DNA of 64,000 bases, from positions 7,442-71,441 of the forward strand of contig CAYZFF010000001.1 in assembly GCA_964477305.1 (NCBI GenBank), written 5' to 3'. The notes beneath the pieces are model-generated. The model did not search any database, was not told where the DNA came from, and saw only the letters and a list, made by a program, of their open reading frames with translations. How positions within the stretch are numbered: position 1 is the first letter of the stretch; the number at the start of each line of letters is the position of its first letter. The position numbers and the translations under genes were made by a program. The DNA comes from an uncultured Cytophagia bacterium. GTDB taxonomy: Bacteria; Zhuqueibacterota; Zhuqueibacteria; Zhuqueibacterales; Zhuqueibacteraceae. Of this stretch, positions 1,936 to 64,000 are shown piece after piece.

Positions 1936-1973
1936 CATGGTAATCAGTAACCCGAAATTTTTTGTTTAAGATA

Positions 1974-45556: not shown

Positions 45557-47341
45557 ATGTTAGAAAATACCCTCGCCACTGACTTTATTCCCGGTACCAA
45601 TCTCACCGGCGGCCTCGCGCGCGCCTCGTGGCGATTTTTATTGCCCAACCTGGAATTAGATCGCATTGTCTGTTTCGGCGTGCCCTCGGCTGCGACGTTG
45701 AACGTACTTGCCACTATGGGCAAGGAAATGTTGGTGCTTTCTACCAACGCGCCGCAATTGGAGGCCGTTCGGAAAGAGGTTGATTCGCACAACCTCACTT
45801 TGACGCACGTGACGGATTTCACACGACTGCCTTTGCCGGATCGCAGTGTGTCGCTGGTTTTGCTCGCCGGGAAAAAGGAATTGGCGAGTCTCCTGCTCGA
45901 TACGGTATTTCCAGCGGAGTTGAATCGACTGCTCAAAGAAGACGGCGCGATTTACTTCGAGGTAAAAAATCTGTCCGAGCGATCGGTGGCGCGCCAGATG
46001 ATGCATAATCTCGCGGAACTGGGCTTTAAAGGAGTGCGGGAGTTTTGGCTCACACCGTTCAAAGGCGAGTTGCGCACCGCGTTCCCGCTGGATGATCGGA
46101 TGTCCAAATATCTTTTCACCAATGTCTTGTATGGCCAATCCGTAAAAAAACGGGCCTTGAGCCGCGCCGGCGTCATGCTCAGTCAGGCTGGCCTGCTTCG
46201 TCATCTAGCGCCGCGCCGCGCTATTTTCGTGCAACGCTCGTCGGCGCAACTGGAAAAGCAGACGCCGCAATATTTGAACACGCTGGCAAAAAAGGCGGGC
46301 GTCGATTTATCCGCCATGTCCTGCGGCCTTTCGGCGCGAGGAAAATTTAACGCCAACAAAAACATTTTTTATTTGTTTGATGCCGGCAAAGGGGAGAAAG
46401 CCCGGGCCGTCGTTAAAATGACGCGCGCGACCGACTTCAATAAACGTTTGGAGAATGAGTATCGCGTACTTGCGAAACTCCATCAAAATGGCTTTGTCGA
46501 CAAAGGCACCTATCCCGAGCCTTTATTCTACGGCACCCATGCCGGTCTCGCCATTCTCGGGCAAATGGCCGTCTACGGCGAACCGTTCCGCAGCCGCACT
46601 AAAGCGACCATTGATTGCCCCATTGCCAATGACGCCCTCAATTGGATCGTGAAGCTCGGCGCCGCTTCGGCGAATACCGCCGCGGCCGCTTCTGCTGAAG
46701 TTGAAGCCGCAATGATGAAACTGTATCGTCGCTTCGCGGAGATTTATCCGCTGACCAATGCCGAAGCCGATTTTCTCGTTGAGCAAATTAAAACGATCGG
46801 CCGGGTCTCAAAAAAATTCCCTTTGGTTTTTCAGCACGGCGATCCCGGCACGTGGAACATGCTGGTCTCCCCGGAAAATCGCGTTATCGTCATTGATTGG
46901 GAAGCGGGCGAACCCGAAGGCATGCCGTTGTGGGATCTGTTTTATTTCACGCGCACCTACGGCAGTTGGATGTCGCGTATGCAAGGCAGCCGCAATCCGC
47001 TCAAAAATTTTACGCAACATTTTCTCGAACCCTCGCCGTTGCACGAGTTGCTGCTTGCCACCCTCCGGCGTTATTGTCAGGGCGTCGGCCTGGCGCCGGC
47101 TTTAATTGCGCCGCTCTTTTATACCTGCTGGATGCATCGCGCGCTCAAAGAGTCGACGCGTTTGCAAACAGATGGATTAATTCAAGGCACTTTTTTTACC
47201 TTGCTCCGGCATTGCATTGAGCATTACAATACCGCTGCCCTGCAAACTCTTTTTTCGCTGAGCACGAACAACCAGGCCTCAAGCTCCGATGACAAAAATT
47301 CAGCCGGAGTGAATCAATTAAAAGTGAATGCCGGTTTGTAA
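45557..47341 (+). CDS. fusion of a degenerate Rossmann/methyltransferase-like N-domain and an aminoglycoside/choline-kinase-like (APH fold) phosphotransferase domain
   Basis: The C-terminal half has APH-type catalytic and Mg motifs: FQHGDPGTWNMLVSPENRVIVIDWEAGEPEGMPLWDLFYF. The N-terminal half (RIVCFGVPSAATLNVLATMG...LVLLAG...LKEDGAIYFEV) looks like a class I methyltransferase fold without a clean GxGxG. Confidence 0.55.
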   Translation: MLENTLATDFIPGTNLTGGLARASWRFLLPNLELDRIVCFGVPSAATLNVLATMGKEMLVLSTNAPQLEAVRKEVDSHNLTLTHVTDFTRLPLPDRSVSLVLLAGKKELASLLLDTVFPAELNRLLKEDGAIYFEVKNLSERSVARQMMHNLAELGFKGVREFWLTPFKGELRTAFPLDDRMSKYLFTNVLYGQSVKKRALSRAGVMLSQAGLLRHLAPRRAIFVQRSSAQLEKQTPQYLNTLAKKAGVDLSAMSCGLSARGKFNANKNIFYLFDAGKGEKARAVVKMTRATDFNKRLENEYRVLAKLHQNGFVDKGTYPEPLFYGTHAGLAILGQMAVYGEPFRSRTKATIDCPIANDALNWIVKLGAASANTAAAASAEVEAAMMKLYRRFAEIYPLTNAEADFLVEQIKTIGRVSKKFPLVFQHGDPGTWNMLVSPENRVIVIDWEAGEPEGMPLWDLFYFTRTYGSWMSRMQGSRNPLKNFTQHFLEPSPLHELLLATLRRYCQGVGLAPALIAPLFYTCWMHRALKESTRLQTDGLIQGTFFTLLRHCIEHYNTAALQTLFSLSTNNQASSSDDKNSAGVNQLKVNAGL

Positions 47342-53561: not shown

Positions 53562-54866
53562 ATGAACGCCAACTCGATCACCATTGCCGAGCACGAGCTG
53601 ACTCGGTTTTTTTTTGCGATTACCCTGTTGCTGGTTCTCGCCCATAGCTTAGGGTACGTCTTCAATAAATTGAAACTGCCCAAAGTCGTCGGCGAGATTT
53701 GCGGCGGCCTGTTGCTCGGCCCCACCGTGTTGGGGACGCTTTCCCCGGAAAGTTACAATTGGCTGTTCAATGCGTTCGCGTTTGAAGGGAAACTGCTGTC
53801 GATCGTTTATTGGCTCGGCCTCGTGCTGCTGATGTTCGTCTCCGGCTTCGAAATCAAAATGTCGTTGGACAAAGACGATAAAAAGATCATCATCGCTTTA
53901 CTCGTCGGCTCGACCGTGCCATTCATCGCCGGCTGGATTGCGCCATATTTTTTTGATTTTTCACGGCTGTTGGGCGAGAAACAAAATATGCTGGCGTTGA
54001 AAATCGTTATCGGCATTGCTGTCGCCGTTACTTCGATTCCGGTCATTTCGAAGATCTTTCTCGATTTAAACATCATGCAGACGCGTTTCGCGCGTATCAT
54101 CTTGACGACGGCGACGATTCATGACGTCTTTTTGTGGGTGGCGCTGGCGATCGCTACCGGCCTGGTGAGCGCGACGAGTTATTCGATGACGCACATCGTT
54201 TCCACTGTCTGCGTGTCGTTTGCCTTTCTTGGCGTGTCGCTTATGGTGATGCCGAAAATTTTGCCGATTTTGACGGGCAATCGTTATAATCTGGTGCGCA
54301 AATCTTCCAGCGCCGGTTATATTCTTTTTCTCTGTTTTCTGTTTTCAGCGGTCGCGAGCCTGTTAAACGTCAATATCATCTTCGGCGCATTTTTGGCAGG
54401 CGTCGCGATTGGGGTGTTGCCCGCAAGTTTCAATAAAGAGAAAGATCATGTCAAAGAAATCGCGCTGGCATTTTTTACACCGCTCTATTTCGCCATCGTC
54501 GGTTTGAAATTGGATTTGATTCATCAGTTCGATCTCAAGTTTTTTCTATTCTTTTTGTTGTTCTCGGCCGTGTTTGAAACGCTCGGCACGCTGGCTGCCG
54601 CAAAATCTTTGAAGAAAGATTGGCTGACGAGCTTCAACTTCGCGGTCGCGATGAACACGCGCGGCGGCCCCGGCATCGTGCTCGCCACCATCGCGTACGA
54701 TCTTGGCATTATCAGCGCAACGTTTTTTGTCACGCTGGTAATGATTGCGATCATCACTTCGCTGCTCGCCGGAATGTGGTTCAAGTTTGTTTTGGCGCGC
54801 GGTTACGAGTTGTTAAAAGAGGCGCCTGTGAAGTCCGGCGTACGGGAAAAGAGCTTTCAGATTTAA
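53562..54866 (+). CDS. monovalent cation:proton antiporter (CPA2 / Na+/H+ exchanger family)
   Basis: About 12 TM helices. N-terminal motif LKLPKVVGEICGGLLLGPTVLG is typical of Kef/NapA-type exchangers. Confidence 0.75.
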   Translation: MNANSITIAEHELTRFFFAITLLLVLAHSLGYVFNKLKLPKVVGEICGGLLLGPTVLGTLSPESYNWLFNAFAFEGKLLSIVYWLGLVLLMFVSGFEIKMSLDKDDKKIIIALLVGSTVPFIAGWIAPYFFDFSRLLGEKQNMLALKIVIGIAVAVTSIPVISKIFLDLNIMQTRFARIILTTATIHDVFLWVALAIATGLVSATSYSMTHIVSTVCVSFAFLGVSLMVMPKILPILTGNRYNLVRKSSSAGYILFLCFLFSAVASLLNVNIIFGAFLAGVAIGVLPASFNKEKDHVKEIALAFFTPLYFAIVGLKLDLIHQFDLKFFLFFLLFSAVFETLGTLAAAKSLKKDWLTSFNFAVAMNTRGGPGIVLATIAYDLGIISATFFVTLVMIAIITSLLAGMWFKFVLARGYELLKEAPVKSGVREKSFQI

Positions 54867-54880
54867 TTTGTCACTGCGTC

Positions 54881-56116
54881 ATGCAAACCAAACGAATTTT
54901 TCTCTACGGCTCCATTTTAGCGGGCAGTTTAGTTTTCGGCTATCTCGGCAGCAATTATTTTCTCGAGCAGGTGAATACCTCGCTGGTTTATTATGATCCG
55001 GGAAAAACTTTAGCTATTGGAACGCCCTCCGCCAAAGCCACATCGTTGCCGCTGTTGCCCGATCAGCAAATCCGCAATATCATTCTCTTCATCGGCGACG
55101 GCATGGGATTGAGTCATCTCACCGCGGCGCGCATCAATTCATTTGGGCCGGACGGCAGATTTCATCTCGAGCATATGCCAGTGACGGGCTTGGTGACGAC
55201 ACATGCCGTCGATAACCTCATCACTGATTCTGCCGCCGCAGGAACGGCGCTCGCCACCGGCGTGAAAACCACGAACGGCAGCATCGGCGTGGATTCAAGC
55301 GGCACGAGTCATCTGACGATTTTGGAAGCCGCGCGCGATGCGGGCCTGGCAACGGGCTTGGTGACGACGACGTATATCACCGACGCCACACCCGCGACTT
55401 TTGCCGCGCATGTGAGAAGCCGCGCGATGAAGGACGAAATCGCGCTGCAGTTGCTCAACGCGCGCGTGAATATTTTATTCGGCGAAGGCGATCATTTTTA
55501 TCCGAAAACCGATTCCCGCAGCGCCAGAAAAGATGGCGAGAATCCTCTCACGCTCGCCAAGGCATTGGGCTATACGCTTGTCGAAAAAAAAGAAGATCTG
55601 GTCAATGCGAATGCCAATTTTCTGCTCGGCCTGTTTCCAGATTTGACTACCGATAGAATGAAGCCGGAATTGCAATCGCCGCCGCAAACGCCGAGCTTGG
55701 CAGAAATGGCGGCGAAAGCGATTGAAGTTTTGCATCGCAATGAAAAGGGGTTTTTTCTGATGGTGGAAGAGGAAGGCGTGGATATGGGCAGCCATGTCAA
55801 TCGCGAGGATTATTTCATTCATCATTTGAATCGTTTGGATGAAGCGATCAAAGTCGGGCTCGATTTTGCGGCGCGCAATGGGCAAACCTTGGTGCTCGTC
55901 ACTGCCGATCACGAAACCGGCGGGGTGAATATCATCGGCGGTGTGAAAAGAAAAAATAAAGTAAAGTTGTCATGGGCCACCGATCGCCATACCGGCCAAC
56001 CCGTGCCGCTGTTTGCCTACGGTCCGCACGCGCTGCGCTTCACCGGCTTAAAAGATAATACGGAAATTCCCAAGATGATGGCGGAGTTGCTGCAATTGGA
56101 AAAATTTCCCCAATAG
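54881..56116 (+). CDS. alkaline phosphatase (PhoA family), N-terminally membrane-anchored or secreted
   Basis: Motifs: ILFIGDGMGLSHLTAARI, active-site Ser region LITDSAAAGTALATGVKT, EEEGVDMGSH, TADHETGG. Track ORF 54620 overlaps the antiporter; ATG 54881 gives a hydrophobic N-terminus MQTKRIFLYGSILAGSLVFGYLG. Confidence 0.85.
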   Translation: MQTKRIFLYGSILAGSLVFGYLGSNYFLEQVNTSLVYYDPGKTLAIGTPSAKATSLPLLPDQQIRNIILFIGDGMGLSHLTAARINSFGPDGRFHLEHMPVTGLVTTHAVDNLITDSAAAGTALATGVKTTNGSIGVDSSGTSHLTILEAARDAGLATGLVTTTYITDATPATFAAHVRSRAMKDEIALQLLNARVNILFGEGDHFYPKTDSRSARKDGENPLTLAKALGYTLVEKKEDLVNANANFLLGLFPDLTTDRMKPELQSPPQTPSLAEMAAKAIEVLHRNEKGFFLMVEEEGVDMGSHVNREDYFIHHLNRLDEAIKVGLDFAARNGQTLVLVTADHETGGVNIIGGVKRKNKVKLSWATDRHTGQPVPLFAYGPHALRFTGLKDNTEIPKMMAELLQLEKFPQ

Positions 56117-56212
56117 CATTTTCAGCGCAAAAAAAATTCCGCATGGAATTTGCATATCAGGTATAATCCTAACTTGAAATCTTGAAAATACAAGCGATTT
56201 GGAGAAGGCTCG

Positions 56213-58894
56213 ATGATCATCAAGAATGTCGAAAAAGAAAATGGGATTTTAATTTTGTCGCCGATACGGCGTGCCGTCGGTAATCCTCGGCCTCGTTTCG
56301 TTTTAATTGTCCTGCTCGGCATCTTTAGCCTCGCGGCTGTCAGTTTAGCGAGCGTTTATTACGGCATGGTTTTGTTCAAATCAAAGGCGGCAGCTTCTTT
56401 TTCCGAATTTTTTGAGAACGCCGTCCAAACGAAGCTGAACATCGTTCCCAATTACATCAAGGGCCAATTCATGGCCAAACCGGAACAAATCACCATCGAT
56501 ATCAAACACGAAAATTTTCAACGATTGGCCTACAGCCGTGAGCTGGCCTTGCAGCGCCGTATTTTGATGACGACAGACGATGATTTCGTGCCGGCCAAAG
56601 TGAGCTACCAGGGCAAAACCTACGACGTGAAAATGCGCTTGAAAGGCGATTGGGTGGATCATCTGCTTGGCGACAAATGGTCGTTTCGCATCGTTTTGAA
56701 AGGCGACGCGACGATTTTCGGCATGAAACAATTTTCCATTCACCAACCGAAAACGCGCAATTATATTTACGAATGGATTTATCATCAGGCGCTGCGCCGC
56801 GAGAACGTTTTGTCTTTGCGCTATGATTTTATCGACGTGACGCTCAACGGCAAGAATTTGGGCATATACGCGCTCGAAGAGAGTTTTGAAAAACGGGTCA
56901 TCGAGAACAACCGTTTTCGCGAAGGTCCGATTCTCAAATTCAACGAGGAATTATTGTGGGAAGATCGCGCCATGCACTATCGTTTCGGCGATCTCAGCCC
57001 AACGGGATTGCAAGCCGAACGGGTCGGCAACATTGATGCTTTTAAGCTGGGCCGCATTATGGGCGATCCCGGCTTGTACAAACAGTTTCTGCTGGCCAAC
57101 AATCTGTTGGATGCGTTTCGCTATAAAAAGCTGCCGACCCACAAAGTATTTGACATCAACAAGCTGGCCATGTTTTTTGCGACGGCCGATTTGTTAGGCT
57201 CGACACACAGCGCTGTTTGGCATAATTTGCGGTTTTATTATAATCCGATTACCTCGCAGTTGGAGCCGATTGGCTTTGACGCCAATGCGGGCCACCCGAC
57301 GGTGCAAGTGTTGGGCTCCAGCCGGGATTTGGACGGCGAAACCGATCCCTTCAAATTCAAAGATATTGCTTTTAGCGACGAGTTGTTCTTTGAGGCTTAT
57401 ATCAAAGCGCTGCAAAGAGTCGCAGCCCCGGCTTATTTGGACAGCTTGCTGCACGACATTGCTCCGGAGATGGAGAAAAAGCTGGCGATTATTTACAAAG
57501 ACGATGCGCATTTTTATTTTACCCCAAAAGTTTTTTACGATAACCAAGAGACCATTCGCCAGACGCTGCACCCGGCCAAAGGCCTGCATGCTTATTGCGA
57601 TGCGGCGACGAATGATCGCCTCGCGCTGGAGTTGGGCAATATTCAAATCATGCCAATTGAAGTGTTGAGCGCTTCTTTTAAAGACGCGATTTTGTTTACG
57701 CCGAAAGAGCGGATCATTTTGCATCCGTTGCGACCCGGCGTGCCGGTGGATTATCGGCGATTTGATTTTGCCTGCCCCGCTGGCTTCGTGTGGGCGGATA
57801 CCATGCGGGCGGATCTGAAAATTAATTATCGCGTGCTGGGCACCGAGGAAAAACGGCAGCATCCCATTTTGGAATGGCCGCGGCACACGGAAAATTTTCT
57901 GGATAATGATTTTATGCGGCAGGATGCGAACGCCCGGCAATTCGCGTTTCTCGCGTTTGACGATTCGAGCAAGCGTATTTTTATCAAACCCGGCAGTTGG
58001 AATATCGACCAGAATTTAATTATCCCGCGTGGTTATCGCGTGCTCGGTGGCGAAGGCACACGCCTCAACCTCTCGAATAAGGCGCTGATTCTTTCTTACT
58101 CCGCGCTGGAGCTGCGTGGCAGCGAAGATTTTCCGTTCGTCATCGAATCCAAAGATTCTACCGGCCAGGGTTTGGTGGTGTTGAATGCGCATGCGACGTC
58201 AGTCTTCGAACACGTGAAGATTGATAATTTGTCCAATCCCGCGCAAAAAGGCTGGACGTTGACCGGCGCGGTGACGTTTTACGAATCGCCCATCAATACC
58301 GTGCATACACAATTCCTTGGCAATCGTTGCGAGGACGGCGTCAATGTTTTTCGCTCCGATTTTCATTTTGATAAAACACTGTTCCAAAACACCAAATCCG
58401 ACGCCTTTGATTCCGATTTTTCCAATGGTAAATTCACCAATTCGTCTTTTATTAATTGCGGCAACGACGGCTTGGACGTCTCCGGCTCCGTGGTCGAGCT
58501 GAGTCATGTCTATATCAACGGCACGGGTGATAAAGGCGTCAGCGGTGGCGAGTTCAGTCACGTGCAAGCGGATAATATTGAAATTCATCACGCCGAAATC
58601 GCCGTGGCCAGCAAAGACAAAACGGAACTGAATATCAGCAATGTCAAGATTGACAGTTGCGGCGTCGGCTTCACAGCCTATCGCAAAAAGCCCGAGTTCG
58701 GCGCGGCCGCGATCTTCGCCAAAAATGTGCAAATGGGCCGCTGCAAAGCGCCTTTTCTGATCGAGAACAATTCCTCGATGAAACTTGATGGCAAAGTGAT
58801 CGCCACCGAACACGATCACGTCGAAAAGCTTTTTTATGGCAATGAATTTGGTAAAGACACCAAAACCGGCAGAACCGTCCAAAAACCGCAATGA
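56213..58894 (+). CDS. CotH kinase-family protein with N-terminal TM anchor and C-terminal right-handed beta-helix domain
   Basis: CotH-like core: KMRLKGDWVDHL..KWSFRIVLKG, FSIHQPKTRNYIYEWIYHQALRRENVLSLRYDFIDVTLNGKNLGIYALEESFEKRVIE, WHNLRFYYNPITSQLEPIGFDAN. The C-terminal beta-helix repeats are paralogous to ORF 8816. GGAG-like RBS. Confidence 0.7.
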   Translation: MIIKNVEKENGILILSPIRRAVGNPRPRFVLIVLLGIFSLAAVSLASVYYGMVLFKSKAAASFSEFFENAVQTKLNIVPNYIKGQFMAKPEQITIDIKHENFQRLAYSRELALQRRILMTTDDDFVPAKVSYQGKTYDVKMRLKGDWVDHLLGDKWSFRIVLKGDATIFGMKQFSIHQPKTRNYIYEWIYHQALRRENVLSLRYDFIDVTLNGKNLGIYALEESFEKRVIENNRFREGPILKFNEELLWEDRAMHYRFGDLSPTGLQAERVGNIDAFKLGRIMGDPGLYKQFLLANNLLDAFRYKKLPTHKVFDINKLAMFFATADLLGSTHSAVWHNLRFYYNPITSQLEPIGFDANAGHPTVQVLGSSRDLDGETDPFKFKDIAFSDELFFEAYIKALQRVAAPAYLDSLLHDIAPEMEKKLAIIYKDDAHFYFTPKVFYDNQETIRQTLHPAKGLHAYCDAATNDRLALELGNIQIMPIEVLSASFKDAILFTPKERIILHPLRPGVPVDYRRFDFACPAGFVWADTMRADLKINYRVLGTEEKRQHPILEWPRHTENFLDNDFMRQDANARQFAFLAFDDSSKRIFIKPGSWNIDQNLIIPRGYRVLGGEGTRLNLSNKALILSYSALELRGSEDFPFVIESKDSTGQGLVVLNAHATSVFEHVKIDNLSNPAQKGWTLTGAVTFYESPINTVHTQFLGNRCEDGVNVFRSDFHFDKTLFQNTKSDAFDSDFSNGKFTNSSFINCGNDGLDVSGSVVELSHVYINGTGDKGVSGGEFSHVQADNIEIHHAEIAVASKDKTELNISNVKIDSCGVGFTAYRKKPEFGAAAIFAKNVQMGRCKAPFLIENNSSMKLDGKVIATEHDHVEKLFYGNEFGKDTKTGRTVQKPQ

Positions 58895-58968
58895 TGGTTG
58901 CACGGATTCGCTGAACACTGAACGTTTTTGTTTTAATTTATCATATTTAATTTAAGGAAAACCGGTTT

Positions 58969-59658
58969 ATGGATAAGCTGCAGATGACATTCGAGCAGTT
59001 CTTGACCACCCAGAGTGTGCAGGTTTCGGTTTGGGACTTTGTCTTAAATTTAGTTTTATCCGCGATTCTCGCATATTTGTTGAGCTTGGTTTACGCCAAA
59101 TACGGACACTCGCTTTCTAACCGCAAAATGTTTGCGCGGAATTTTATGCTCATTACGATGGCGACAATGTTGATTATCTCCATTGTCAAAGCCTCGCTGG
59201 CGTTGTCACTTGGCCTCGTCGGCGCGCTCTCTATCGTGCGCTTTCGCGCGGCGATCAAAGAGCCGGAAGAGCTGGCGTATTTGTTTCTTGCCATCGGCAT
59301 CGGCCTCGGTTTCGGCGCGGATCAACGGCTCGTCACCACCGTGGCGTTTGCCATCATCTTCGGGATGATTTGGCTGCGCAGCCGCTCGCGCGCCGGACGG
59401 GAAAATCATTCATTGTATTTGACGCTTACCAGCCGTAATCCCAGCAAAGTCGAATTGGATCGTATCGTCGAAACATTGCAAAAACATTGCGCCACCGCGA
59501 GCATCAAACGTTTTGACGAAAACAAAGACGTGTTGGAAGCCTCGTTTTTGGTTGAAGTCGATAATTACGAAAAATTGAATCAGAGCAAAGCCGAGTTGCG
59601 AAAGCTGAACGACGCGATGACGATCAGCTTCATGCAGAATAACGGCATGTTGTCGTAA
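58969..59658 (+). CDS. DUF4956-domain membrane protein (copy 1)
   Basis: TM helices plus the signature LSLGLVGALSIVRFRAAIKEPEELAYLFLAIGIGLGFGA. Its stop overlaps the next start (TAATG). Confidence 0.7.
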   Translation: MDKLQMTFEQFLTTQSVQVSVWDFVLNLVLSAILAYLLSLVYAKYGHSLSNRKMFARNFMLITMATMLIISIVKASLALSLGLVGALSIVRFRAAIKEPEELAYLFLAIGIGLGFGADQRLVTTVAFAIIFGMIWLRSRSRAGRENHSLYLTLTSRNPSKVELDRIVETLQKHCATASIKRFDENKDVLEASFLVEVDNYEKLNQSKAELRKLNDAMTISFMQNNGMLS

Positions 59659-60524
59659 TGATTTCCCGCCGTGAATTTCTCCAGCTCGGTGCAGTTGCTG
59701 GGCTGGGAATGGCCGGAATATTGAACGGACAATCCTCTGCCGAATTCGCTTTCGGTATTGTCGGTGATATTCATTACGCCGATAAAGACATGCGGATCAA
59801 TCGCTACTATCGCGATTCAATTGCGAAGCTGGAGCAATGTGTTGCCACGTTTAATGAGAGCCGGCTGGCGTTTGTGGTGATGTTGGGCGATTTTATTGAC
59901 AAAGCGCCTGACAAAGCCACGGAATTGGAATATTTAAAAACCATTCGGCAGGTTTGGGCGCAATTTCGCGGCGATAAACATTTCGTGCTCGGCAATCACG
60001 ATCTTGCGCGCTTATCCAAAACCGAGTATCTGGATAATTGTGACGCGGTGGTATCTCAGAGCTATTATTCATTCGATGCGGACGGTTATCACTTCGTAAT
60101 TTTGGATGCGGGCTTCACGAAGGCGGGCACGGCTTATGATGCCGGAAATTTTCAATGGAAAGATGCCAATATTCCGGCAGCGCAGCAAGAGTGGCTCAGA
60201 CAAGATTTGCAGAACGCCAGTACGAAGAAAACTATTGTGTTTGTACACCAAAACCTGCACGAGACCGCGAGCATTTACGGCGTGAAGAACGCTAAAGACG
60301 TGCGCCGGATTTTAGAGAAATCGGGAAATGTGGTGGCCGTCCTGCAAGGCCATGATCACAAGGGTGCATACGCGAAAATCAACGGCATTCACTATTTTAC
60401 CTTAAAAGCGTTGGTGGATGGTGCGACGTTAAAAAATAATGCTTACGCCATTGTGACGATAGCACCGAATGGCCGCCTGAGCTTGCGCGGCTTTGGAAAA
60501 GAGCAAGATTTCATTTTTGTTTAA
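59658..60524 (+). CDS. Tat-signal metallophosphoesterase (calcineurin-like)
   Basis: Twin-arginine-like MISRREFLQLGAVAGLGMAG. MPE motifs GDIHY, LGDFID, GNHD, VFVHQNLH, GHDHKG. Confidence 0.8.
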   Translation: MISRREFLQLGAVAGLGMAGILNGQSSAEFAFGIVGDIHYADKDMRINRYYRDSIAKLEQCVATFNESRLAFVVMLGDFIDKAPDKATELEYLKTIRQVWAQFRGDKHFVLGNHDLARLSKTEYLDNCDAVVSQSYYSFDADGYHFVILDAGFTKAGTAYDAGNFQWKDANIPAAQQEWLRQDLQNASTKKTIVFVHQNLHETASIYGVKNAKDVRRILEKSGNVVAVLQGHDHKGAYAKINGIHYFTLKALVDGATLKNNAYAIVTIAPNGRLSLRGFGKEQDFIFV

Positions 60525-60526
60525 TT

Positions 60527-61297
60527 ATGGAACTTCTGGTCGAAGAAAAAGCCGCTGAGCCGCGTCTTAAAAAAACGCCGGCCACCGAGGCGGCGGTGAA
60601 AAAAGAAAAAACGGTTTTTACGCCCGAAGATTATCGTTTCGAGCGCAAATATTTTGTGGCGGATTTGACGAAGCGCGAGATTCTCGATCTTGTCCGGCTG
60701 CATCCGGCGCTGTTTACGGAGATTTATCACGAACGCTTTGTCAATAATATTTATTTTGACTCGCACGAATTTGAGAGTTATTTCGCCGCGATGGATGGCT
60801 TGGCGCATCGCGTGAAGCGCCGGATTCGCTGGTATGGCAATTTGCAAGGGCGCATCGAAAAACCGGTGTTGGAGCTGAAAATCAAAGACGGGCAAGTCAA
60901 TCGCAAAGAGGATCACAAGCTGACGCCGTTTGCGCTCGACGAAAACTACAGTTTCAACACCACCGGCGAAGTTTTCAAAAATTCTGGGCTGCCGGAGAAA
61001 TTAAAGGAAGAAATGCTGGGGTTGCAGCCGTCGCTGGTCAATCGTTATCGCCGCCAGTATTTTATGTCGGCCAACCGGCAGTATCGTGTGACAGTGGACA
61101 CCGATCTCGAATATTATCGCATTAAACCGTGCGACAATACATTTTTAGATCGTTGGATTGACCGCGATAACGTGATCGTTGAACTGAAATACGCGAACGC
61201 GGAAGATCGCAATGCGGATTTGGTCTCGCGCCGTTTTCCGTTTCGCGTGACCAAAAGCTCGAAATATTGCATGGGCATCGAAAGATTTTATTTATAA
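60527..61297 (+). CDS. VTC-domain (polyphosphate-polymerase/CYTH-like) protein (copy 1)
   Basis: FERKYFV start of domain, RIRWYG, LELKIK, RRQYFMS, IVELKY alternating beta-strand pattern. Collinear with ORF 62143. Confidence 0.6.
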   Translation: MELLVEEKAAEPRLKKTPATEAAVKKEKTVFTPEDYRFERKYFVADLTKREILDLVRLHPALFTEIYHERFVNNIYFDSHEFESYFAAMDGLAHRVKRRIRWYGNLQGRIEKPVLELKIKDGQVNRKEDHKLTPFALDENYSFNTTGEVFKNSGLPEKLKEEMLGLQPSLVNRYRRQYFMSANRQYRVTVDTDLEYYRIKPCDNTFLDRWIDRDNVIVELKYANAEDRNADLVSRRFPFRVTKSSKYCMGIERFYL

Positions 61298-61336
61298 ATT
61301 CTAACAACTTTAAAGGAAATCGCAGGAGCACCTTCT

Positions 61337-62008
61337 ATGAATCCTTCCAGTGTATTAAAAATTGATTTGACCCCCGGCCAAGTGGCATTGAGCTTCTTGC
61401 TCGCGTTTTCGCTGGCGTTTATCTGGGCAACGGTCTATCGCAAAACCCACAGCGGCGTCGCCTACACGCGCTCGTTTTTTCTGACGTTGCTGTTGATTGC
61501 ACCGATTGTAACGATGGTGATGATGGCCATTGGCAGCAACGTGGCGCTGTCACTCGGCTTGGTCGGTTCCTTGTCCGTCATTCGTTTTCGCACCGTCATT
61601 AAAGACTCCAAAGACATGGTGTTCTTGTTCCTGGCCATTGCCATTGGCTTGTGTACCGGCGCCAATGCCTGGTTGGTCGCGGCTATCGGCACGGGCGCGA
61701 TTTCCTTGATTGCGTTGCTGATGTCGAAGATCGGCCACGCGGGAGCCGGCTCGGCGGACTATATTTTGATCTTCCGCTCGAATCAAAAAGAGCCGTGGAA
61801 TTTGTTGTCGCCGACGGCGCAAGATTTAATTCCGTGGAAGCAATTGCGCGGCGTGACGGATGTGGATTCCGGCACCGAGTTCGAGTATACGTACAACGTG
61901 CGCTTGGCCGCCAAAACTTCGCCGGAACGCCTTATCGGTGAATTTAGCAAGAACGGCGCGATGAAGCAAGTGACGATGATCACCCCGGAGAATCATTTGG
62001 ATCTGTAA
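61337..62008 (+). CDS. DUF4956-domain membrane protein (copy 2)
   Basis: Signature LSLGLVGSLSVIRFRTVIKDSKDMVFLFLAIAIGLCTGA. Collinear with ORF 58969. Confidence 0.7.
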   Translation: MNPSSVLKIDLTPGQVALSFLLAFSLAFIWATVYRKTHSGVAYTRSFFLTLLLIAPIVTMVMMAIGSNVALSLGLVGSLSVIRFRTVIKDSKDMVFLFLAIAIGLCTGANAWLVAAIGTGAISLIALLMSKIGHAGAGSADYILIFRSNQKEPWNLLSPTAQDLIPWKQLRGVTDVDSGTEFEYTYNVRLAAKTSPERLIGEFSKNGAMKQVTMITPENHLDL

Positions 62009-62034
62009 TCCGTTCGTCGTAGTGCCTTCAGGCA

Positions 62035-62063
62035 CACAGCGTTTTGATTTAGGAAACGCTGTG
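62035..62063 (+). other. 10-bp perfect hairpin after DUF4956 copy 2, followed by a 12-bp palindrome
   Basis: CACAGCGTTT (62035..62044) / AAACGCTGTG (62054..62063), 9-nt loop. ACAAAATTTTGT (62072..62083) is self-complementary. No T-tract follows, so it is not called a terminator. Confidence 0.4.
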
Positions 62064-62142
62064 ATTGCGTAACAAAATTTTGTGCTAACTCAAGCGATCT
62101 ACGTCTGAAGGCGTCACTGCAAAATTTTTTTAATTTTTAATC

Positions 62143-62907
62143 ATGACCTCCAACCGCACTTTATTATTCAATCGTCTCGAAGTGAAGTACTTCGTTGACC
62201 GCACGACCCGCACGGCGTTGACCCGGGATTTGCTGGCATTCATGCGTCCGGATCAACACTCGACGAGCGACGACGGTTACCTGGTGCGCAGCCTTTATTA
62301 TGACACGCACGATTACATGGCGTATCATGAGAAGCTTTCTGGCATGGCGCAGCGGCATAAACTGCGCGCCCGGGCTTATGGCGCGAATCCGAGCGACAGC
62401 AAATTGGTGCGCTTCGAAGTGAAGTCGCGCTATTTGAGCTACATTTACAAAACCTCGGTCGATGTGCCGCGCTCCAATTACGAAGAAGTTGAATATGCGC
62501 TCAAACGCCGCATTTTGCCGCCCACGACTTTAATGAATGACGCGAAGGTGTCGAAAGAATTTTTTCGCCTGCAACGACAATATAACATGTCGCCGAAAAT
62601 TCTTATTCAATATCGCCGGCAAGCTTTTGAGCGCAATGAAGGCAGCCGCGTGCGGGCCAATTTCGATGACGAACTGTTAGTCACGCCGAATCTCGATTTG
62701 CTGGGGCCATTGCAGGGGGCGCGCCGCTTGTTGCAATACGGCCGTGCGATTTTCGAAATTAAAGTCGACGAACATTTGCCGTACTGGCTGCACCAGCTTA
62801 TTTCCAAATACAATTTGCAAAGTCAAGCGATCAGCAAATATTGTTATGCCGTGCGCAGCGAAGCACGCATGTCCGCGGCCGGTAGGCCGGAAGAGCACGT
62901 GAATTGA
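62143..62907 (+). CDS. VTC-domain (polyphosphate-polymerase/CYTH-like) protein (copy 2)
   Basis: Motifs: RLEVKYFVD, LRARAYG, VRFEVKSR, YRRQAFE, IFEIKV. Paralogue of ORF 60527. Confidence 0.6.
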   Translation: MTSNRTLLFNRLEVKYFVDRTTRTALTRDLLAFMRPDQHSTSDDGYLVRSLYYDTHDYMAYHEKLSGMAQRHKLRARAYGANPSDSKLVRFEVKSRYLSYIYKTSVDVPRSNYEEVEYALKRRILPPTTLMNDAKVSKEFFRLQRQYNMSPKILIQYRRQAFERNEGSRVRANFDDELLVTPNLDLLGPLQGARRLLQYGRAIFEIKVDEHLPYWLHQLISKYNLQSQAISKYCYAVRSEARMSAAGRPEEHVN

Positions 62908-62939
62908 AGATAAAACGTAATGCGTAAAGCCTAATCCCC

Positions 62940-64000
62940 ATGTCACAGTCCAAACAAAAAATTACCGCCACGTTGGAGCGCGTGAGCAGCCCGGTGCGCG
63001 GCATCTGGCCGCGATTGTCGGATGCGTTGATCGGCATAAGCGCGCTGGTTGTCATTGCGTTTTGTTGCCTGACATATTCTACCACTTTGGCGCGTCGCGC
63101 CAGTGAGTTGGTGACTGGCAACAAATACCTCGCGCTGATTGACGGCTTCTTCAATCCTTTTCGCAGCCGCCATTTGTTGCTGAACTCCGGTCTGCCGGTT
63201 TACGATTTGAAAATTTCACCGGAAGAGTATAATAAAGTCGAACAGACCGTCGCGCAAAACCTCAAACACGGTTGGATGAACGACGACGCCAAAATCTGGT
63301 CGAAAGCGCAATTCATTTATGAAGGCGAAAAGCGCGGTGTGGAGATTCGGGTGCGTGGCGCGCTGCCACCGCATTGGGCGCACCCCAAAAAATCTTGGCG
63401 CATCAAATTCGGCAAAGAGAAGCTTAATGACAATGGCAAGGTGATCGAAGAGAAGATTTATTTTCGCGGCAAACGTCAGATCAATCTCGTCATCCCCAGC
63501 GACAAACTTTATGGGATGGCCACTTTCATCAATTCACTGCTGCGCAATTATAAGTTAGTGACGATGGATGATCGCTTCGTCATTCTGCGCATCAACGGTA
63601 TCGTGCAGGGCGTCTATTACGAAGTTGAACAGTTTGATAAAGCCATGTTCGCCGCAGATAATCGGCCGGAGACGCCGTTGTTCGGGCAGAATGGTCGCGG
63701 CATGCATTTCGAGCAATACACCAAATACGGCACGCCCGCGGCTTCCGACGCGAAGTATGACATGGGTTCGATCGAGCGCGCGGTTGATCCGGAGAATGAC
63801 ATCGGTATGCGGGCGATTGAAACGCTCAACGAACACGCAAAGAACCCGACGCCGGAAAATTTTCGCCGCGCGCGCAACGTGCTGGATTGGGAAAAATATT
63901 TGCGTTTTCGCTGCATGACGACGCTGTGCAACACCAATCACGTGCGTTTCGGCTCGGACAACATGAAGCTTTACTACGATCCCAGCCGCGGCCTGCTGGA
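62940..64000 (+). CDS. CotH kinase-family protein, 3'-truncated by window edge (absent from the ORF track because no stop is reached)
   Basis: I translated the frame from ATG 62940 by hand and it stays open to 64000. It has an N-terminal TM helix (ALIGISALVVIAFCCL). CotH-like blocks: EIRVRGALPPHWAHPKKSWRIKF, INLVIPSDKLYGMATFINSLLRNYKLVTMDDRFVILRINGIVQGVYYEVEQFDKAMF, CNTNHVRFGSDNMKLYYDPSRG. Confidence 0.65.
   Translation, partial: MSQSKQKITATLERVSSPVRGIWPRLSDALIGISALVVIAFCCLTYSTTLARRASELVTGNKYLALIDGFFNPFRSRHLLLNSGLPVYDLKISPEEYNKVEQTVAQNLKHGWMNDDAKIWSKAQFIYEGEKRGVEIRVRGALPPHWAHPKKSWRIKFGKEKLNDNGKVIEEKIYFRGKRQINLVIPSDKLYGMATFINSLLRNYKLVTMDDRFVILRINGIVQGVYYEVEQFDKAMFAADNRPETPLFGQNGRGMHFEQYTKYGTPAASDAKYDMGSIERAVDPENDIGMRAIETLNEHAKNPTPENFRRARNVLDWEKYLRFRCMTTLCNTNHVRFGSDNMKLYYDPSRGLL

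What the first reader, a model, noticed from the sequence alone, without database searches (positions are those of the whole stretch)
54881..64000. A duplicated CotH / DUF4956 / VTC cluster with a Tat metallophosphoesterase lies next to PhoA
The gene order is PhoA, CotH with beta-helix, DUF4956, Tat-MPE, VTC, DUF4956, VTC, CotH (partial). Intergenic distances are minimal: a TAATG stop/start overlap at 59656..59660, 2 nt between 60524 and 60527, and 39 nt before 61337.

CotH proteins are atypical protein kinases. VTC domains are the catalytic tunnel of eukaryotic polyphosphate polymerase. DUF4956 is a membrane protein repeatedly found beside bacterial VTC genes. As far as I know the biochemical role of this bacterial trio is not established.

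Here the DUF4956-VTC pair is tandemly duplicated and bracketed by two CotH genes with N-terminal TM anchors. It is embedded in an island full of secreted phosphatases. This suggests an envelope-associated polyphosphate or phosphotransfer system, possibly acting on the matrix or on the giant surface proteins.
Basis: partly seen in the sequence, partly recalled or inferred. Interest (0 to 1): 0.7.

Follow-up and report, generated by a model that had tools for sequence, protein, structure and literature searches.

The report
Paired polyphosphate-polymerase/CotH modules in polysaccharide locus
The end of this window carries two anciently diverged copies of a little-studied bacterial gene set (a polyphosphate-polymerase-like enzyme, its obligatory membrane partner and a surface-exposed kinase-like protein fused to a sugar-binding domain) inside an exopolysaccharide locus. 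The set probably makes polyphosphate and uses it outside the cell membrane to modify the polysaccharide, but no one has tested this.

Summary
Genes, order and spacing are as described, and VTC, DUF4956, CotH, metallophosphoesterase and PhoA assignments hold.

Three corrections:
- **Not a recent duplication.** The two VTC/DUF4956/CotH sets share only 22-33% identity. Each has its own orthologues, which occur alone in other genomes.
- **Not a phosphatase island.** The surroundings are a Wzx/Wzy-type, probably sulfated, exopolysaccharide and T9SS surface-protein locus.
- **Already noted in the literature.** The trio was described as accessory genes of Gram-positive pel loci, with function unknown.

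New here:
- In 46 of 46 VTC genes with enough flank, DUF4956 lies within 4.5 kb on the same strand. A CotH-like gene is within 4.5 kb in at least 38 of 46. The neighbours are mostly glycosyltransferase, flippase and polymerase genes, in MAGs of several phyla.
- Both VTC paralogues keep every Vtc4 catalytic tunnel residue.
- Both CotH-like proteins are membrane-anchored and probably face outwards. They have the CotH kinase fold plus a polysaccharide-type beta-helix. They lack a conserved canonical catalytic Asp and carry an invariant His there.

Best reading (inferred, about 0.4): cytoplasmic polyphosphate synthesis is coupled through DUF4956 to an extracytoplasmic CotH-like transferase acting on the polysaccharide. 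The Tat-exported phosphoesterase and PhoA would trim or recycle phosphate.

The parts
54881..56116 (+). PhoA-type alkaline phosphatase with an N-terminal hydrophobic signal or anchor. It is a recurrent upstream neighbour of module A.
   Evidence: Pfam Alk_phosphatase E = 9e-88. NCBIfam alkaline phosphatase E = 1.9e-62, below the equivalog cut-off. PhoA lies next to CotH-A in L006, L009, L010 and L045, and within 10 kb in L007. N-termini are shown.
56213..58894 (+). CotH-A: single N-terminal TM helix (about residues 30-48), CotH kinase-fold domain (about 90-450), and C-terminal right-handed beta-helix (about 580-860). It has an invariant His332 in place of a conserved catalytic Asp. Asn338 and Asp356 are kept.
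   Evidence: Domain, fold and motif results. Topology N-in/C-out by the positive-inside rule in 33 of 39 orthologues. The family has 2098 50%-identity clusters at E <= 1e-30.
58969..59658 (+). DUF4956-A: polytopic membrane protein with the invariant ALSLGLVGxLSxxRFRxxIK motif and a soluble C-terminal domain.
   Evidence: Pfam DUF4956 E = 8.8e-17. Hydrophobic segments. Family invariants. Its stop overlaps the next start (TAATG).
59658..60524 (+). Tat-exported metallophosphoesterase of the ADPRibase-Mn-like branch, with all five MPE motifs present.
   Evidence: Pfam Metallophos E = 2.4e-15 plus TAT_signal. The SRRxFL motif and MPE motifs occur in all six orthologues. Nearest solved structure is 2nxf, E = 8.3e-12. 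It sits inside module A in L005-L007, L045, L047 and L048, and between CotH-A and DUF4956-B in L009 and L010.
60527..61297 (+). VTC-A: soluble triphosphate-tunnel (Vtc4-like) domain protein with no signal peptide or TM helix.
   Evidence: Pfam VTC E = 2.8e-27. The invariant tunnel residues are shared with VTC-B and map onto Vtc4 K200, R264, R266, K281, Y359, R361, R373, E426, S457 and K458. No hydrophobic segment was found.
61337..62008 (+). DUF4956-B: membrane partner of VTC-B. About five predicted helices followed by a ferredoxin-like C-terminal domain.
   Evidence: Pfam DUF4956 E = 1.5e-14. Weak MgtC similarity, E = 0.094. AF2 model has TM-part pLDDT 52-59 and C-terminal domain about 80. 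Invariant G77, R83, R85 and G104 in 85 of 85 sequences.
62143..62907 (+). VTC-B: second soluble Vtc4-like tunnel enzyme. Highly conserved, at 54-87% identity across MAGs of several phyla.
   Evidence: Pfam VTC E = 1.2e-35. Supporting results.
62940..64000 (+). CotH-B, cut by the window end (first 353 of about 1005-1040 aa). TM-anchored CotH-like domain. Orthologues continue into a beta-helix.
   Evidence: Pfam CotH E = 6.9e-13. A profile of orthologues hits B. cereus CotH 5jd9, E = 6e-12. The NTNHVRFGSDN motif is invariant. Full-length orthologues carry CotH plus Beta_helix. Topology is N-in in 17 of 20.

Best explanation
The region holds two separately evolved 'VTC modules' built into an exopolysaccharide (EPS) biosynthesis locus of an uncultured bacterium, probably related to candidate division KSB1.

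Each module has three core parts:
- A cytoplasmic Vtc4-like tunnel enzyme.
- A DUF4956 inner-membrane protein that always accompanies it.
- A membrane-anchored, outward-facing CotH-like protein fused to a polysaccharide-type beta-helix.

Proposed mechanism:
1. The VTC enzyme polymerises polyphosphate from cytoplasmic ATP while docked on DUF4956.
2. DUF4956 passes the chain, or its phosphoryl groups, across the membrane. This would be functionally analogous to the transmembrane channel of the eukaryotic VTC complex.
3. On the outer side, where ATP is not available, the CotH-like domain uses this donor to phosphorylate or polyphosphorylate the nascent polysaccharide held by its beta-helix. The invariant His that replaces the usual catalytic Asp may take part in this step.
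4. The Tat-exported metallophosphoesterase, PhoA and the recurrent phytase-like proteins trim the chains and recover phosphate.

Shown here: gene content, co-conservation, conservation of the catalytic residues of VTC, the fold of CotH-A, the predicted topology, and the EPS context.

Inferred: polyphosphate synthesis, its export through DUF4956, the use of polyphosphate by the CotH-like domain, and the polysaccharide as acceptor.
For: **Domain identity.**

**VTC catalytic residues.** In 35 sequences covering both paralogue families the invariant columns are R11, E13, K15, R75, R77, Y157, R159, R171, E205, S231 and K232 (K94 is nearly invariant, at least 90%). These align with Vtc4 R196, T198, K200, R264, R266, K281, Y359, R361, R373, E426, S457 and K458. 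The profile hits the Vtc4 catalytic domain at E = 1e-12.

**Obligate VTC-DUF4956 pairing.** All 46 VTC genes with at least 4 kb on both sides have DUF4956 on the same strand within 4.5 kb. At least 38 of 46 have a CotH-like gene within 4.5 kb (gene maps).

**Module independence and sharing.**
- Module B occurs alone in L001 and L003.
- Module A occurs alone in L007.
- Both occur together in L005 and L006.
- In L009 and L010, one VTC/DUF4956 pair sits next to both CotH-A plus MPE and CotH-B.

**Compartment logic.**
- VTC proteins have no signal peptide or TM helix.
- CotH-A and CotH-B have one TM helix with more K+R on the N-terminal flank: 4.46 vs 2.13, and 3.1 vs 1.6.
- The MPE has a twin-arginine signal in all orthologues.

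**CotH-like domain.**
- Kinase fold: Foldseek E = 6e-12 to 5jda.
- The beta-helix resembles the AlgG and AlgE4 epimerases, a GH87 glucanase, tailspike depolymerases and polygalacturonases.
- The metal-binding Asn and Asp and basic residues are kept. An invariant His sits at or next to the catalytic Asp position.

**DUF4956.** Invariant R83, R85, G77 and G104, and near-invariant S80 and K89, across 85 sequences of 19-86% identity.

**Context.** Wzc, initiating transferase, GT2, GT1, Wzx, Wzy, the heptose-nucleotide pathway, sulfotransferase and ATP sulfurylase.

**Operon-like packing.**

**Genetics elsewhere.** Deleting the DUF4956 and CotH homologues of S. intermedius changes Pel polysaccharide level and aggregation (PMC12345266).
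Against: - I found no report of a biochemical assay of a bacterial VTC-domain protein (literature searches).
- In S. intermedius, deletion of the VTC gene gave no significant change in aggregation, while the DUF4956 and CotH deletions did (PMC12345266). The three may therefore not form one linear pathway.
- Nothing shows that DUF4956 is a channel. Its AF2 model is poor in the membrane part. It has no solved relative. Its weak relative MgtC is described as a regulator, not a transporter (PMC12345266).
- Lacking the canonical catalytic Asp, the CotH-like domains could be non-catalytic. Two CotH-B orthologues (L011, L025) have lost both loop Asp residues.
- Topology rests on the positive-inside rule only. 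For the window's own CotH-B the flanks are balanced (my count on the sequence).
- The register of the His/Asp alignment is uncertain by one or two residues.
Confidence: 0.4

Rival explanations
1. Regulatory model. VTC and DUF4956 form a cytoplasmic-face sensor or regulator. Polyphosphate or a triphosphate ligand is made or bound by VTC, and the MgtC-like membrane part with its small ligand-binding-type C-terminal domain tunes EPS production to phosphate or energy status. The CotH-beta-helix proteins are independent extracytoplasmic polysaccharide-binding or processing proteins. No phosphate crosses the membrane through DUF4956.
For: - DUF4956-B has weak MgtC similarity (E = 0.094). JGI names homologues 'YhiD', an MgtC-family name.
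- The C-terminal domain is a small ferredoxin-like fold of the kind used for ligand binding. It is described as ACT in PMC12345266.
- Deletion of the S. intermedius DUF4956 gene raised Pel and deletion of CotH lowered it. That is a regulatory-looking, opposite effect, and the VTC deletion gave no significant change in aggregation (PMC12345266).
- The beta-helix resembles enzymes that act without phosphate chemistry, such as epimerases and lyases.
Against: - It does not explain why a kinase-fold domain with conserved metal and phosphate-binding residues is fused to the beta-helix and so tightly linked to VTC (at least 38 of 46).
- It does not explain why exported phosphoesterases (Tat-MPE, PhoA, phytase-like) recur inside or beside the module.
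- It does not explain why all polymerase residues of Vtc4 are invariant.
Confidence: 0.25
2. Protein-kinase model. The CotH-like proteins are genuine ATP-dependent Ser/Thr kinases like Bacillus CotH. They phosphorylate secreted or surface proteins, for example the giant T9SS proteins of the same island. VTC-made polyphosphate is a separate matrix or storage component.
For: - CotH fold and a CotH Pfam hit.
- Bacillus CotH is a proven protein kinase (PMC7821199).
- Six giant T9SS surface proteins are encoded in the same window.
Against: - The canonical catalytic Asp (B. subtilis D228) is not conserved in either paralogue family.
- The domains are predicted to lie outside the cytoplasmic membrane, where ATP is not expected (the ATP point is general knowledge).
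- The fused domain is a polysaccharide-type beta-helix.
- Most related loci have the modules without giant surface proteins but with glycosyltransferases.
Confidence: 0.1
3. Non-polymerase tunnel enzyme. The bacterial VTC domains are triphosphate-tunnel metalloenzymes with another activity, such as tripolyphosphatase, polyphosphatase or nucleotide-triphosphate cleavage. The module degrades or senses condensed phosphates rather than making them.
For: - TTM enzymes carry out diverse reactions with one fold (PMC4641920).
- The bacterial proteins keep a Glu (E13) of the classical ExExK motif where Vtc4 has Thr198.
- SPX and transmembrane domains of eukaryotic VTC subunits are absent.
Against: - Sequence similarity is specifically to the VTC family (Pfam E down to 1e-35). 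The only solved structures hit by the profile are VTC subunits.
- The Vtc4 residues S457 and K458 are invariant.
Confidence: 0.1

Closest known systems
Accessory genes cotH / 'poly-phosphate polymerase' / DUF4956 (plus DUF4832) next to Gram-positive pelDEADAFG operons. Sources: Whitfield et al., bioRxiv 10.1101/768473; S. intermedius SIR_1592-1594, PMC12345266.
   Same: - The same three protein families are contiguous and attached to an exopolysaccharide locus.
- CotH is predicted to be secreted, VTC cytoplasmic, and DUF4956 a 4-TM protein with a small C-terminal domain.
- Function is unknown.
   Different: - No pel genes are present here. The locus is Wzc/Wzx/Wzy-type. This contradicts the published statement that the trio is not found outside pel loci.
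- Here there are two diverged modules, and CotH is about 900-1000 aa with a beta-helix instead of FN3.
- The catalytic Asp is replaced by His, whereas the one Firmicute CotH sampled here (L042) keeps the canonical Asp.
- A Tat metallophosphoesterase and PhoA are added.
- The hosts are uncultured lineages known only from MAGs (KSB1, Calditrichaceae, Chloroflexota, Acidobacteriaceae, Myxococcota, Cytophagia), not Firmicutes or Actinobacteria.
Eukaryotic VTC complex (Vtc4 catalytic tunnel plus Vtc1/2/3 transmembrane channel; PDB 3g3q, 7ytj, 8i6v; PMC9911596).
   Same: - The tunnel domain is homologous (profile E = 1e-12) and all catalytic residues are conserved.
- The enzyme is always partnered with a membrane protein.
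- The product would be delivered to the non-cytosolic side of a membrane.
   Different: - There are no SPX domains.
- The membrane partner (DUF4956, weakly MgtC-like) shows no detectable similarity to any solved structure, VTC subunits included, and is a separate polypeptide.
- Translocation is only inferred.
Bacillus CotH spore-coat Ser/Thr kinase (PDB 5jd9/5jda; PMC7821199).
   Same: - Same fold (Foldseek E = 6e-12, TM-score 0.61-0.63 on the target).
- Conserved metal-binding Asn and Asp (the B. subtilis D251 equivalent) and the basic KxS and RxG motifs.
   Different: - The catalytic Asp (B. subtilis D228) is not conserved, and an invariant His is adjacent.
- The proteins here are membrane-anchored and probably extracytoplasmic.
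- They are fused to a beta-helix.
- There is no spore context.
Clostridium perfringens NELoc-2 (VTC, 226-aa membrane protein, resolvase, VTC, 222-aa membrane protein, CotH; PMC2879425).
   Same: Two VTC plus small-membrane-protein pairs lie next to one CotH and a glycosyltransferase gene.
   Different: - It is a Firmicute pathogenicity locus.
- The membrane proteins were annotated 'tubulin/FtsZ'. I did not compare the sequences.
- No MPE or PhoA is reported.
MgtC/SapB family membrane proteins.
   Same: - Similar size and layout: a polytopic N-terminal part plus a small soluble C-terminal domain.
- Weak Pfam similarity (E = 0.094). JGI names homologues YhiD.
   Different: - Far below any family threshold.
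- DUF4956 has its own invariant GxLSxxRFR motif.
- It is always next to VTC.

Membership tests
VTC / Vtc4-like polyphosphate polymerase tunnel domain (PF09359) | Significant match to the family profile | tested here: met
   VTC-A E = 2.8e-27 and VTC-B E = 1.2e-35, both full length. The profile of both families hits Vtc4 structures at E = 1e-12.
VTC / Vtc4-like polyphosphate polymerase tunnel domain (PF09359) | Basic tunnel and catalytic residues of Vtc4 (K200, R264, R266, K281, Y359, R361, R373, E426, S457, K458) | tested here: met
   All align to invariant columns in 35 sequences of both paralogue families, except K281, whose column is nearly invariant (at least 90%). Numbering was checked against full-length chain 8i6v_E.
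VTC / Vtc4-like polyphosphate polymerase tunnel domain (PF09359) | ATP-dependent polyphosphate synthesis | not testable with these tools
   Needs an enzyme assay. I found no published assay of a bacterial member.
Eukaryotic VTC complex | SPX regulatory domain and C-terminal transmembrane domain on the same polypeptide | tested here: not met
   Both proteins are about 255 aa, with VTC as the only Pfam hit and no hydrophobic segment.
CotH kinase family (PF08757) | Profile match and kinase-like fold | tested here: met
   CotH-B E = 6.9e-13. CotH-A scores 23.5 bits against a 23.8-bit cut-off, but hhalign gives 98% to CotH-B, 47 of 50 relatives hit CotH, and Foldseek gives 5jda at E = 6e-12.
CotH kinase family (PF08757) | Catalytic Asp (B. 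subtilis D228; B. cereus 'NFDGF') | tested here: not met
   This position aligns to Arg (CotH-B) or to a variable Ser/Ala/Glu (CotH-A). An invariant His lies one to two residues away. Canonical N-x-D is kept only in other, shorter VTC-linked CotH proteins. The register is uncertain by 1-2 residues.
CotH kinase family (PF08757) | Metal-binding Asn and Asp (B. subtilis D251; 'IPWD') | tested here: met
   Asn in 65 of 83 sequences and Asp/Glu in 71 of 83 sequences. Both are nearly invariant (at least 90%) in the CotH-A alignment; in the CotH-B alignment Asn is invariant and Asp nearly invariant.
CotH kinase family (PF08757) | Protein Ser/Thr kinase activity | not testable with these tools
   Needs biochemistry.
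DUF4956 (PF16316) | Profile match; polytopic membrane protein | tested here: met
   E = 8.8e-17 and 1.5e-14. Hydrophobic segments. Invariant motif.
Calcineurin-like metallophosphoesterase (PF00149), Tat-exported | Five metal-binding motifs (GDxH, GDxxD, GNH[DE], H, GHxH) and a twin-arginine signal | tested here: met
   Motifs at residues 36, 77, 112 and 231, and SRREFL at residue 3. The twin-arginine motif is present in all six orthologues.
Gram-positive pel-locus accessory cluster (cotH-PPP-DUF4956) | The three families contiguous on one strand | tested here: met
Gram-positive pel-locus accessory cluster (cotH-PPP-DUF4956) | Contiguity with pelDEADAFG | tested here: not met
   No Pel family was detected among the 36 window ORFs scanned. 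The locus has Wzc-like, Bac_transf, Wzx and Wzy genes instead.

The most novel reading that the evidence does not exclude
Bacteria possess a two-protein counterpart of the eukaryotic VTC complex. A Vtc4-like polymerase and DUF4956 together make polyphosphate and thread it across the cytoplasmic membrane. There it serves as the phosphoryl donor for a large, undescribed clade of His-type CotH-like transferases that phosphorylate or polyphosphorylate exopolysaccharides. This would be polyphosphate acting as the 'ATP of the periplasm'.
Probability: 0.25. Interest if true: 0.85.

Novelty: new variant of a known kind. Interest (0 to 1): 0.6.

Why it matters
- **An unsolved energy problem.** Kinase-like enzymes outside the cytoplasmic membrane have no obvious ATP supply. 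From general knowledge, known periplasmic phosphorylations borrow phosphate from lipid carriers, for example LpxT using undecaprenyl pyrophosphate. An exported polyphosphate donor would be a new solution.
- **Function for widespread families.** It would give a function to bacterial VTC-domain proteins, to DUF4956, and to a very large CotH-like clade. That clade has more than 2000 50%-identity clusters.
- **Origin of the eukaryotic VTC complex.** It would bear on where the coupled synthesis and translocation seen in eukaryotes came from.
- **Biofilm matrix chemistry.** It would point to phosphate or polyphosphate as a polysaccharide modification in environmental and host-associated bacteria. 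The same trio sits beside pel loci in streptococci and in a C. perfringens virulence-associated locus.
- **If the mechanism is wrong.** The obligate VTC-DUF4956 pairing and the His-for-Asp change still give directly testable handles.

Tried and rejected
- **Exact look-up of window VTC-A and VTC-B:** not on record. DUF4956-B is 100% identical to P0241 on an NCBI 74,872-bp contig. Only 1-kb Logan contigs could be fetched, and no name or accession was available. The source organism and the rest of CotH-B were therefore not recovered.
- **Single-sequence PDB searches:** those with VTC-A, VTC-B and CotH-A gave nothing useful. The six-sequence CotH-A profile also gave no PDB hit. Profiles of the VTC and CotH-B families worked; for CotH-A the fold search was needed.
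- **Locus search with the mixed VTC-A plus VTC-B alignment:** It was rerun per family.
- **DUF4956 structure:** the AF2 model has pLDDT 62.8. Foldseek gave only generic ferredoxin-like or BMC-like matches at E > 0.02. The profile against PDB gave no hit. There is no support for or against a channel.
- **A CotH-A/VTC 'fusion protein' (P0414):** considered as Rosetta-stone evidence and rejected. The junction is an Arg/Gly-rich stretch typical of a frameshifted read-through.
- **NCBIfam:** no model for VTC, DUF4956 or CotH here.
- **tblastn of VTC-A against plasmids:** no match.
- **Nguyen et al. 2016 (CotH structure paper):** not held. The D228/D251 mapping rests on the 23-residue spacing and on PMC7821199.
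- **Recent tandem duplication:** rejected.
- **Horizontally acquired island:** no compositional signal.

Full report
**1. What is there**

The last 9 kb of the window carry eight same-strand genes with short spacers.
- PhoA: 54881-56116.
- An 893-aa CotH-like protein, here CotH-A: 56213-58894.
- DUF4956-A: 58969-59658.
- A metallophosphoesterase (MPE): 59658-60524.
- VTC-A: 60527-61297.
- DUF4956-B: 61337-62008.
- VTC-B: 62143-62907.
- A second CotH-like gene, CotH-B, cut by the window end: 62940 onward.

Pfam supports every assignment. The only sub-threshold one, CotH-A at 23.5 against 23.8 bits, was confirmed three ways:
- A profile-profile match to the CotH-B family, probability 98%.
- CotH hits in 47 of 50 family members.
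- A confident AF2 model (pLDDT 90.2) whose best PDB match is the B. cereus CotH kinase, E = 6e-12.

The TAATG overlap and the 2-nt spacer were read directly. No terminator-like site falls in a + strand intergenic gap.

**2. The two sets are old paralogues, not a local duplication**

- VTC-A and VTC-B align over only 72 residues at 33% identity.
- The two DUF4956 proteins share 32% over the membrane part.
- The two CotH-like proteins share 22%.

Each has its own orthologues at 55-97% identity. The modules occur separately in other contigs:
- Module B (DUF4956-VTC-CotH of about 1005-1040 aa with beta-helix) is alone in L001 and L003.
- Module A (CotH of about 885-898 aa, DUF4956, MPE, VTC) is alone in L007.
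- Both lie side by side as in the window in L005 and L006. L006 is also syntenic for sulfotransferase, Na/H exchanger and PhoA.
- In L009 and L010, PhoA-CotH-A-MPE is followed directly by DUF4956-B-VTC-B-CotH-B, with no A-type VTC or DUF4956. One polymerase/membrane pair may therefore serve both CotH-like proteins.

**3. Context**

The whole window is a polysaccharide and surface-protein island. It encodes:
- Wzc-like GNVR and P-loop proteins, the initiating sugar transferase, GT2, and a nucleotidyltransferase with a GHMP kinase.
- A beta-helix protein and a T9SS phytase.
- Six 850-1700-aa T9SS proteins with InlB B-repeats and alginate-lyase-like domains.
- GT1, Wzx, an APH-methyltransferase fusion, an alginate-lyase-like protein and Wzy.
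- A pyruvate-kinase-barrel/ATP-sulfurylase fusion, a sulfotransferase and a Na/H exchanger.

In related genomes module B sits in a stereotyped locus: Wzc, Bac_transf, GT2, then DUF4956-VTC-CotH, then NTP-transferase, GHMP kinase (with SIS and HAD genes in L003/L004), a beta-helix protein and GT1. 'Island full of secreted phosphatases' is therefore an overstatement. It is nonetheless true that exported phosphoesterases recur with the modules. These are PhoA, the Tat-MPE, phytase and phytase-like proteins.

**4. Co-conservation**

I fetched 36 genome loci with the VTC-B family and 80 metagenome loci with the VTC-A family. I annotated all ORFs with iterated HMM searches seeded from the window proteins.
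- Of 46 VTC genes with at least 4 kb on both sides, 46 have a DUF4956 gene on the same strand within 4.5 kb. In the gene maps it is the immediate neighbour or separated only by the CotH gene.
- At least 38 of 46 have a CotH-like gene within 4.5 kb. At least two of the eight misses (L014, L116) are ORF-overlap artefacts of my filter.
- Gene order varies: DUF-CotH-VTC, DUF-VTC-CotH, CotH-DUF-VTC, CotH-DUF-MPE-VTC, and VTC-DUF in distant Firmicute, Actinobacterial and Chloroflexi versions.
- This argues for functional rather than merely inherited linkage. Neighbours are mostly glycosyltransferases, Wzx and Wzy.
- VTC-B orthologues of 54-87% identity occur in MAGs labelled KSB1, Calditrichaceae, Anaerolineales/Chloroflexota, Cytophagia, Acidobacteriaceae and Myxococcota. 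This suggests lateral spread together with the EPS locus.
- The named relatives of VTC-A and DUF4956-B with the highest identity are candidate division KSB1. T9SS sorting domains fit an FCB-type organism. The window's source itself could not be retrieved.

**5. The VTC proteins look catalytically competent**

An alignment of 35 sequences from both families has few invariant columns. Nearly all of them are the Vtc4 tunnel and catalytic residues.
- Mapped through the profile alignment to full-length Vtc4 (8i6v_E numbering), the window's VTC-B residues correspond as follows:
  - K15 = K200
  - R75/R77 = R264/R266
  - K94 = K281
  - Y157/R159 = Y359/R361
  - R171 = R373
  - E205 = E426
  - S231/K232 = S457/K458.
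- Both proteins are about 255 aa, with no signal peptide, TM helix or SPX domain.
- That they polymerise phosphate is inferred. I found no biochemical study of a bacterial member.

**6. DUF4956**

- Across 85 distinct sequences of 19-86% identity, the invariant residues are G77, R83, R85 and G104. S80, K89, G108 and E183 are near-invariant. This gives the motif ALSLGLVGxLSxxRFRxxIK.
- Hydrophobicity and the AF2 secondary structure give about five helices, followed by a ferredoxin-like domain of about 85 aa.
- With the positively charged loop at residues 35-46 inside, the RFR-K cluster and the C-terminal domain would face the cytoplasm. This is my inference from the positive-inside rule.
- The membrane part of the model is unreliable (pLDDT 52-59). 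Foldseek and a profile search of PDB found nothing significant.
- There is a weak MgtC resemblance, E = 0.094. This matches the published description of the S. intermedius homologue (PMC12345266).
- Whether DUF4956 is a conduit, an anchor or a regulator is open.

**7. The CotH-like proteins are unusual**

- Both have a single N-terminal TM helix. Across orthologues the N-terminal flank carries about twice as many K+R as the C-terminal flank: CotH-A 4.46 vs 2.13, N>C in 33 of 39; CotH-B 3.1 vs 1.6, N>C in 17 of 20. This predicts that the bulk of the protein lies outside the cytoplasmic membrane.
- The CotH-A model matches B. cereus CotH over about 400 columns.
- Its C-terminal beta-helix matches a GH87 glucanase, the alginate epimerases AlgE4 and AlgG, phage tailspike depolymerases, polygalacturonases and alginate or pectate lyases. 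All of these are polysaccharide-binding or polysaccharide-processing folds.
- B. subtilis CotH is inactivated by D228Q and D251A (PMC7821199). By the 23-residue spacing these correspond to B. cereus D224 ('QNFDGFVHN') and D247 ('IPWD').
- In CotH-B the corresponding stretch is the invariant NTNHVRFGSDN...EPIPWD. In CotH-A it is H332-x5-N338...EPIGFD356.
- The Asn and the second Asp are conserved. The first Asp is not. It aligns to Arg in CotH-B and to a variable residue in CotH-A. An invariant His, shared by both families in the profile-profile alignment, lies one or two positions away.
- In a joint alignment of 83 VTC-linked CotH-like proteins, the canonical N-x-D is retained only in other types. 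These are the Firmicute L042, Actinoplanes L040, L076 and L110, and the roughly 580-aa CotH proteins of L066, L077, L105 and L121. In those last four loci it coexists with a His-type protein of about 860-880 aa.
- The His-type clade is very large: 2098 representative clusters at E <= 1e-30.
- These are therefore CotH-fold proteins that fail one defining catalytic feature of CotH kinases. I file them as CotH-like, not as CotH kinases.

**8. The phosphoesterases**

- The MPE has all five metallophosphoesterase motifs and a twin-arginine signal in every orthologue.
- Its nearest solved relative is the ADPRibase-Mn-like protein 2nxf. From general knowledge, that group cleaves pyrophosphate linkages.
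- Also from general knowledge, the yeast vacuolar endopolyphosphatases Ppn1 and Ppn2 are metallophosphoesterases. An analogous trimming role is plausible but untested.
- PhoA has an N-terminal hydrophobic signal.

**9. Mechanism**

The compartment logic is the main argument.
- The only ATP-using candidates, the VTC proteins, are cytoplasmic.
- The kinase-fold proteins and the phosphoesterases are predicted to be extracytoplasmic.
- The one invariable membrane protein lies between them.

The most economical model is that polyphosphate made from ATP is handed across the membrane via DUF4956. The CotH-like domain then uses it to modify the polysaccharide bound by its beta-helix. The MPE and PhoA recycle phosphate. 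I put this at about 0.4.

The main rival, at about 0.25, is a regulatory VTC/DUF4956 unit with independent CotH-beta-helix proteins. It is favoured by the S. intermedius genetics: the DUF4956 and CotH deletions change Pel levels in opposite directions, and the VTC deletion gave no significant change in aggregation (PMC12345266).

Two further rivals are each at about 0.1:
- A classical protein-kinase reading. It is weakened by the missing Asp, the predicted topology and the beta-helix.
- A non-polymerase tunnel enzyme.

**10. Relation to what is known, and novelty**

- The trio was reported in 2019-2020 as accessory genes of Gram-positive pel loci (10.1101/768473). It was examined genetically in S. 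intermedius (PMC12345266), whose authors state that they could not find the arrangement outside pel loci.
- A doubled VTC plus membrane-protein pair beside CotH is visible in C. perfringens NELoc-2 (PMC2879425).
- The gene set is therefore not new, and its function remains unknown.
- New here:
  - The presence of the trio in Wzx/Wzy-type EPS loci in MAGs of several other phyla (KSB1, Calditrichaceae, Chloroflexota, Cytophagia, Acidobacteriaceae, Myxococcota).
  - The two-module architecture with an embedded Tat-MPE and PhoA.
  - The quantitative demonstration of the obligate VTC-DUF4956 pairing.
  - Full conservation of the polymerase residues.
  - The recognition of a large His-type CotH-beta-helix clade.
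- I rate it a new variant of a known kind, interest 0.6.

Noticed in passing
window 50257-52419 (+): A single 720-aa protein fuses a pyruvate-kinase barrel domain (residues 4-311) to a PUA-like domain and an ATP sulfurylase (343-709). The same fusion (735 aa) lies next to module A in L007 at 11925-14132. It may couple PEP-driven ATP regeneration to sulfate activation for the adjacent sulfotransferase.
   Followed up: partly
window 11651-37676 (+): Six consecutive giant genes (856-1712 aa) encode proteins with divergent InlB B-repeats and FlgD-Ig or Por_Secre_tail (T9SS) C-termini. Some also carry alginate-lyase-like, TIG, F5/8 type C or PKD domains. They split the conserved EPS locus between the phytase gene and GT1.
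   Followed up: no
L011:1310-4351 and L025:10858-13881 (CotH-B orthologues, Anaerolineales MAGs): Both have Asn instead of Asp at two loop positions at once (SNN for SDN, and IPWN for IPWD). The rest of the invariant motif is kept. This correlated double change could mark inactive copies or a different metal requirement.
   Followed up: no
L066, L077, L105, L121 (metagenome loci): One DUF4956-VTC pair is followed by a roughly 580-aa CotH with the canonical N-x-D motif (CNSDW). About 3 kb further on lies a His-type CotH-like protein of about 860-880 aa. Asp-type and His-type proteins can therefore coexist with a single polymerase.
   Followed up: partly
window 45557-47341 (+) and 39342-40079, 42544-43872 (+): The EPS locus contains a methyltransferase-APH (aminoglycoside-phosphotransferase-like kinase) fusion and two P-loop 'thymidylate-kinase-like' proteins. 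APH-like genes recur near the VTC modules in L003, L005, L007, L010, L012 and L025. They are possibly cytoplasmic kinases for sugar modification.
   Followed up: no
window 54620-54880: The mechanical ORF for PhoA starts at TTG 54620 and overlaps the end of the Na/H exchanger gene. Orthologues and the signal-like N-terminus show that the real start is ATG 54881.
   Followed up: yes
P0414 (1110 aa, metagenomic): An apparent CotH-A plus VTC fusion protein. The junction is Arg/Gly-rich and looks like a frameshifted read-through of two adjacent genes in a high-GC genome. It is not a true fusion.
   Followed up: yes
window 4999-6165, 40246-41091, 41781-42551, 1962-2651 (+): Four ORFs of 229-388 aa inside the EPS locus have no Pfam match at E <= 0.001.
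   Followed up: no
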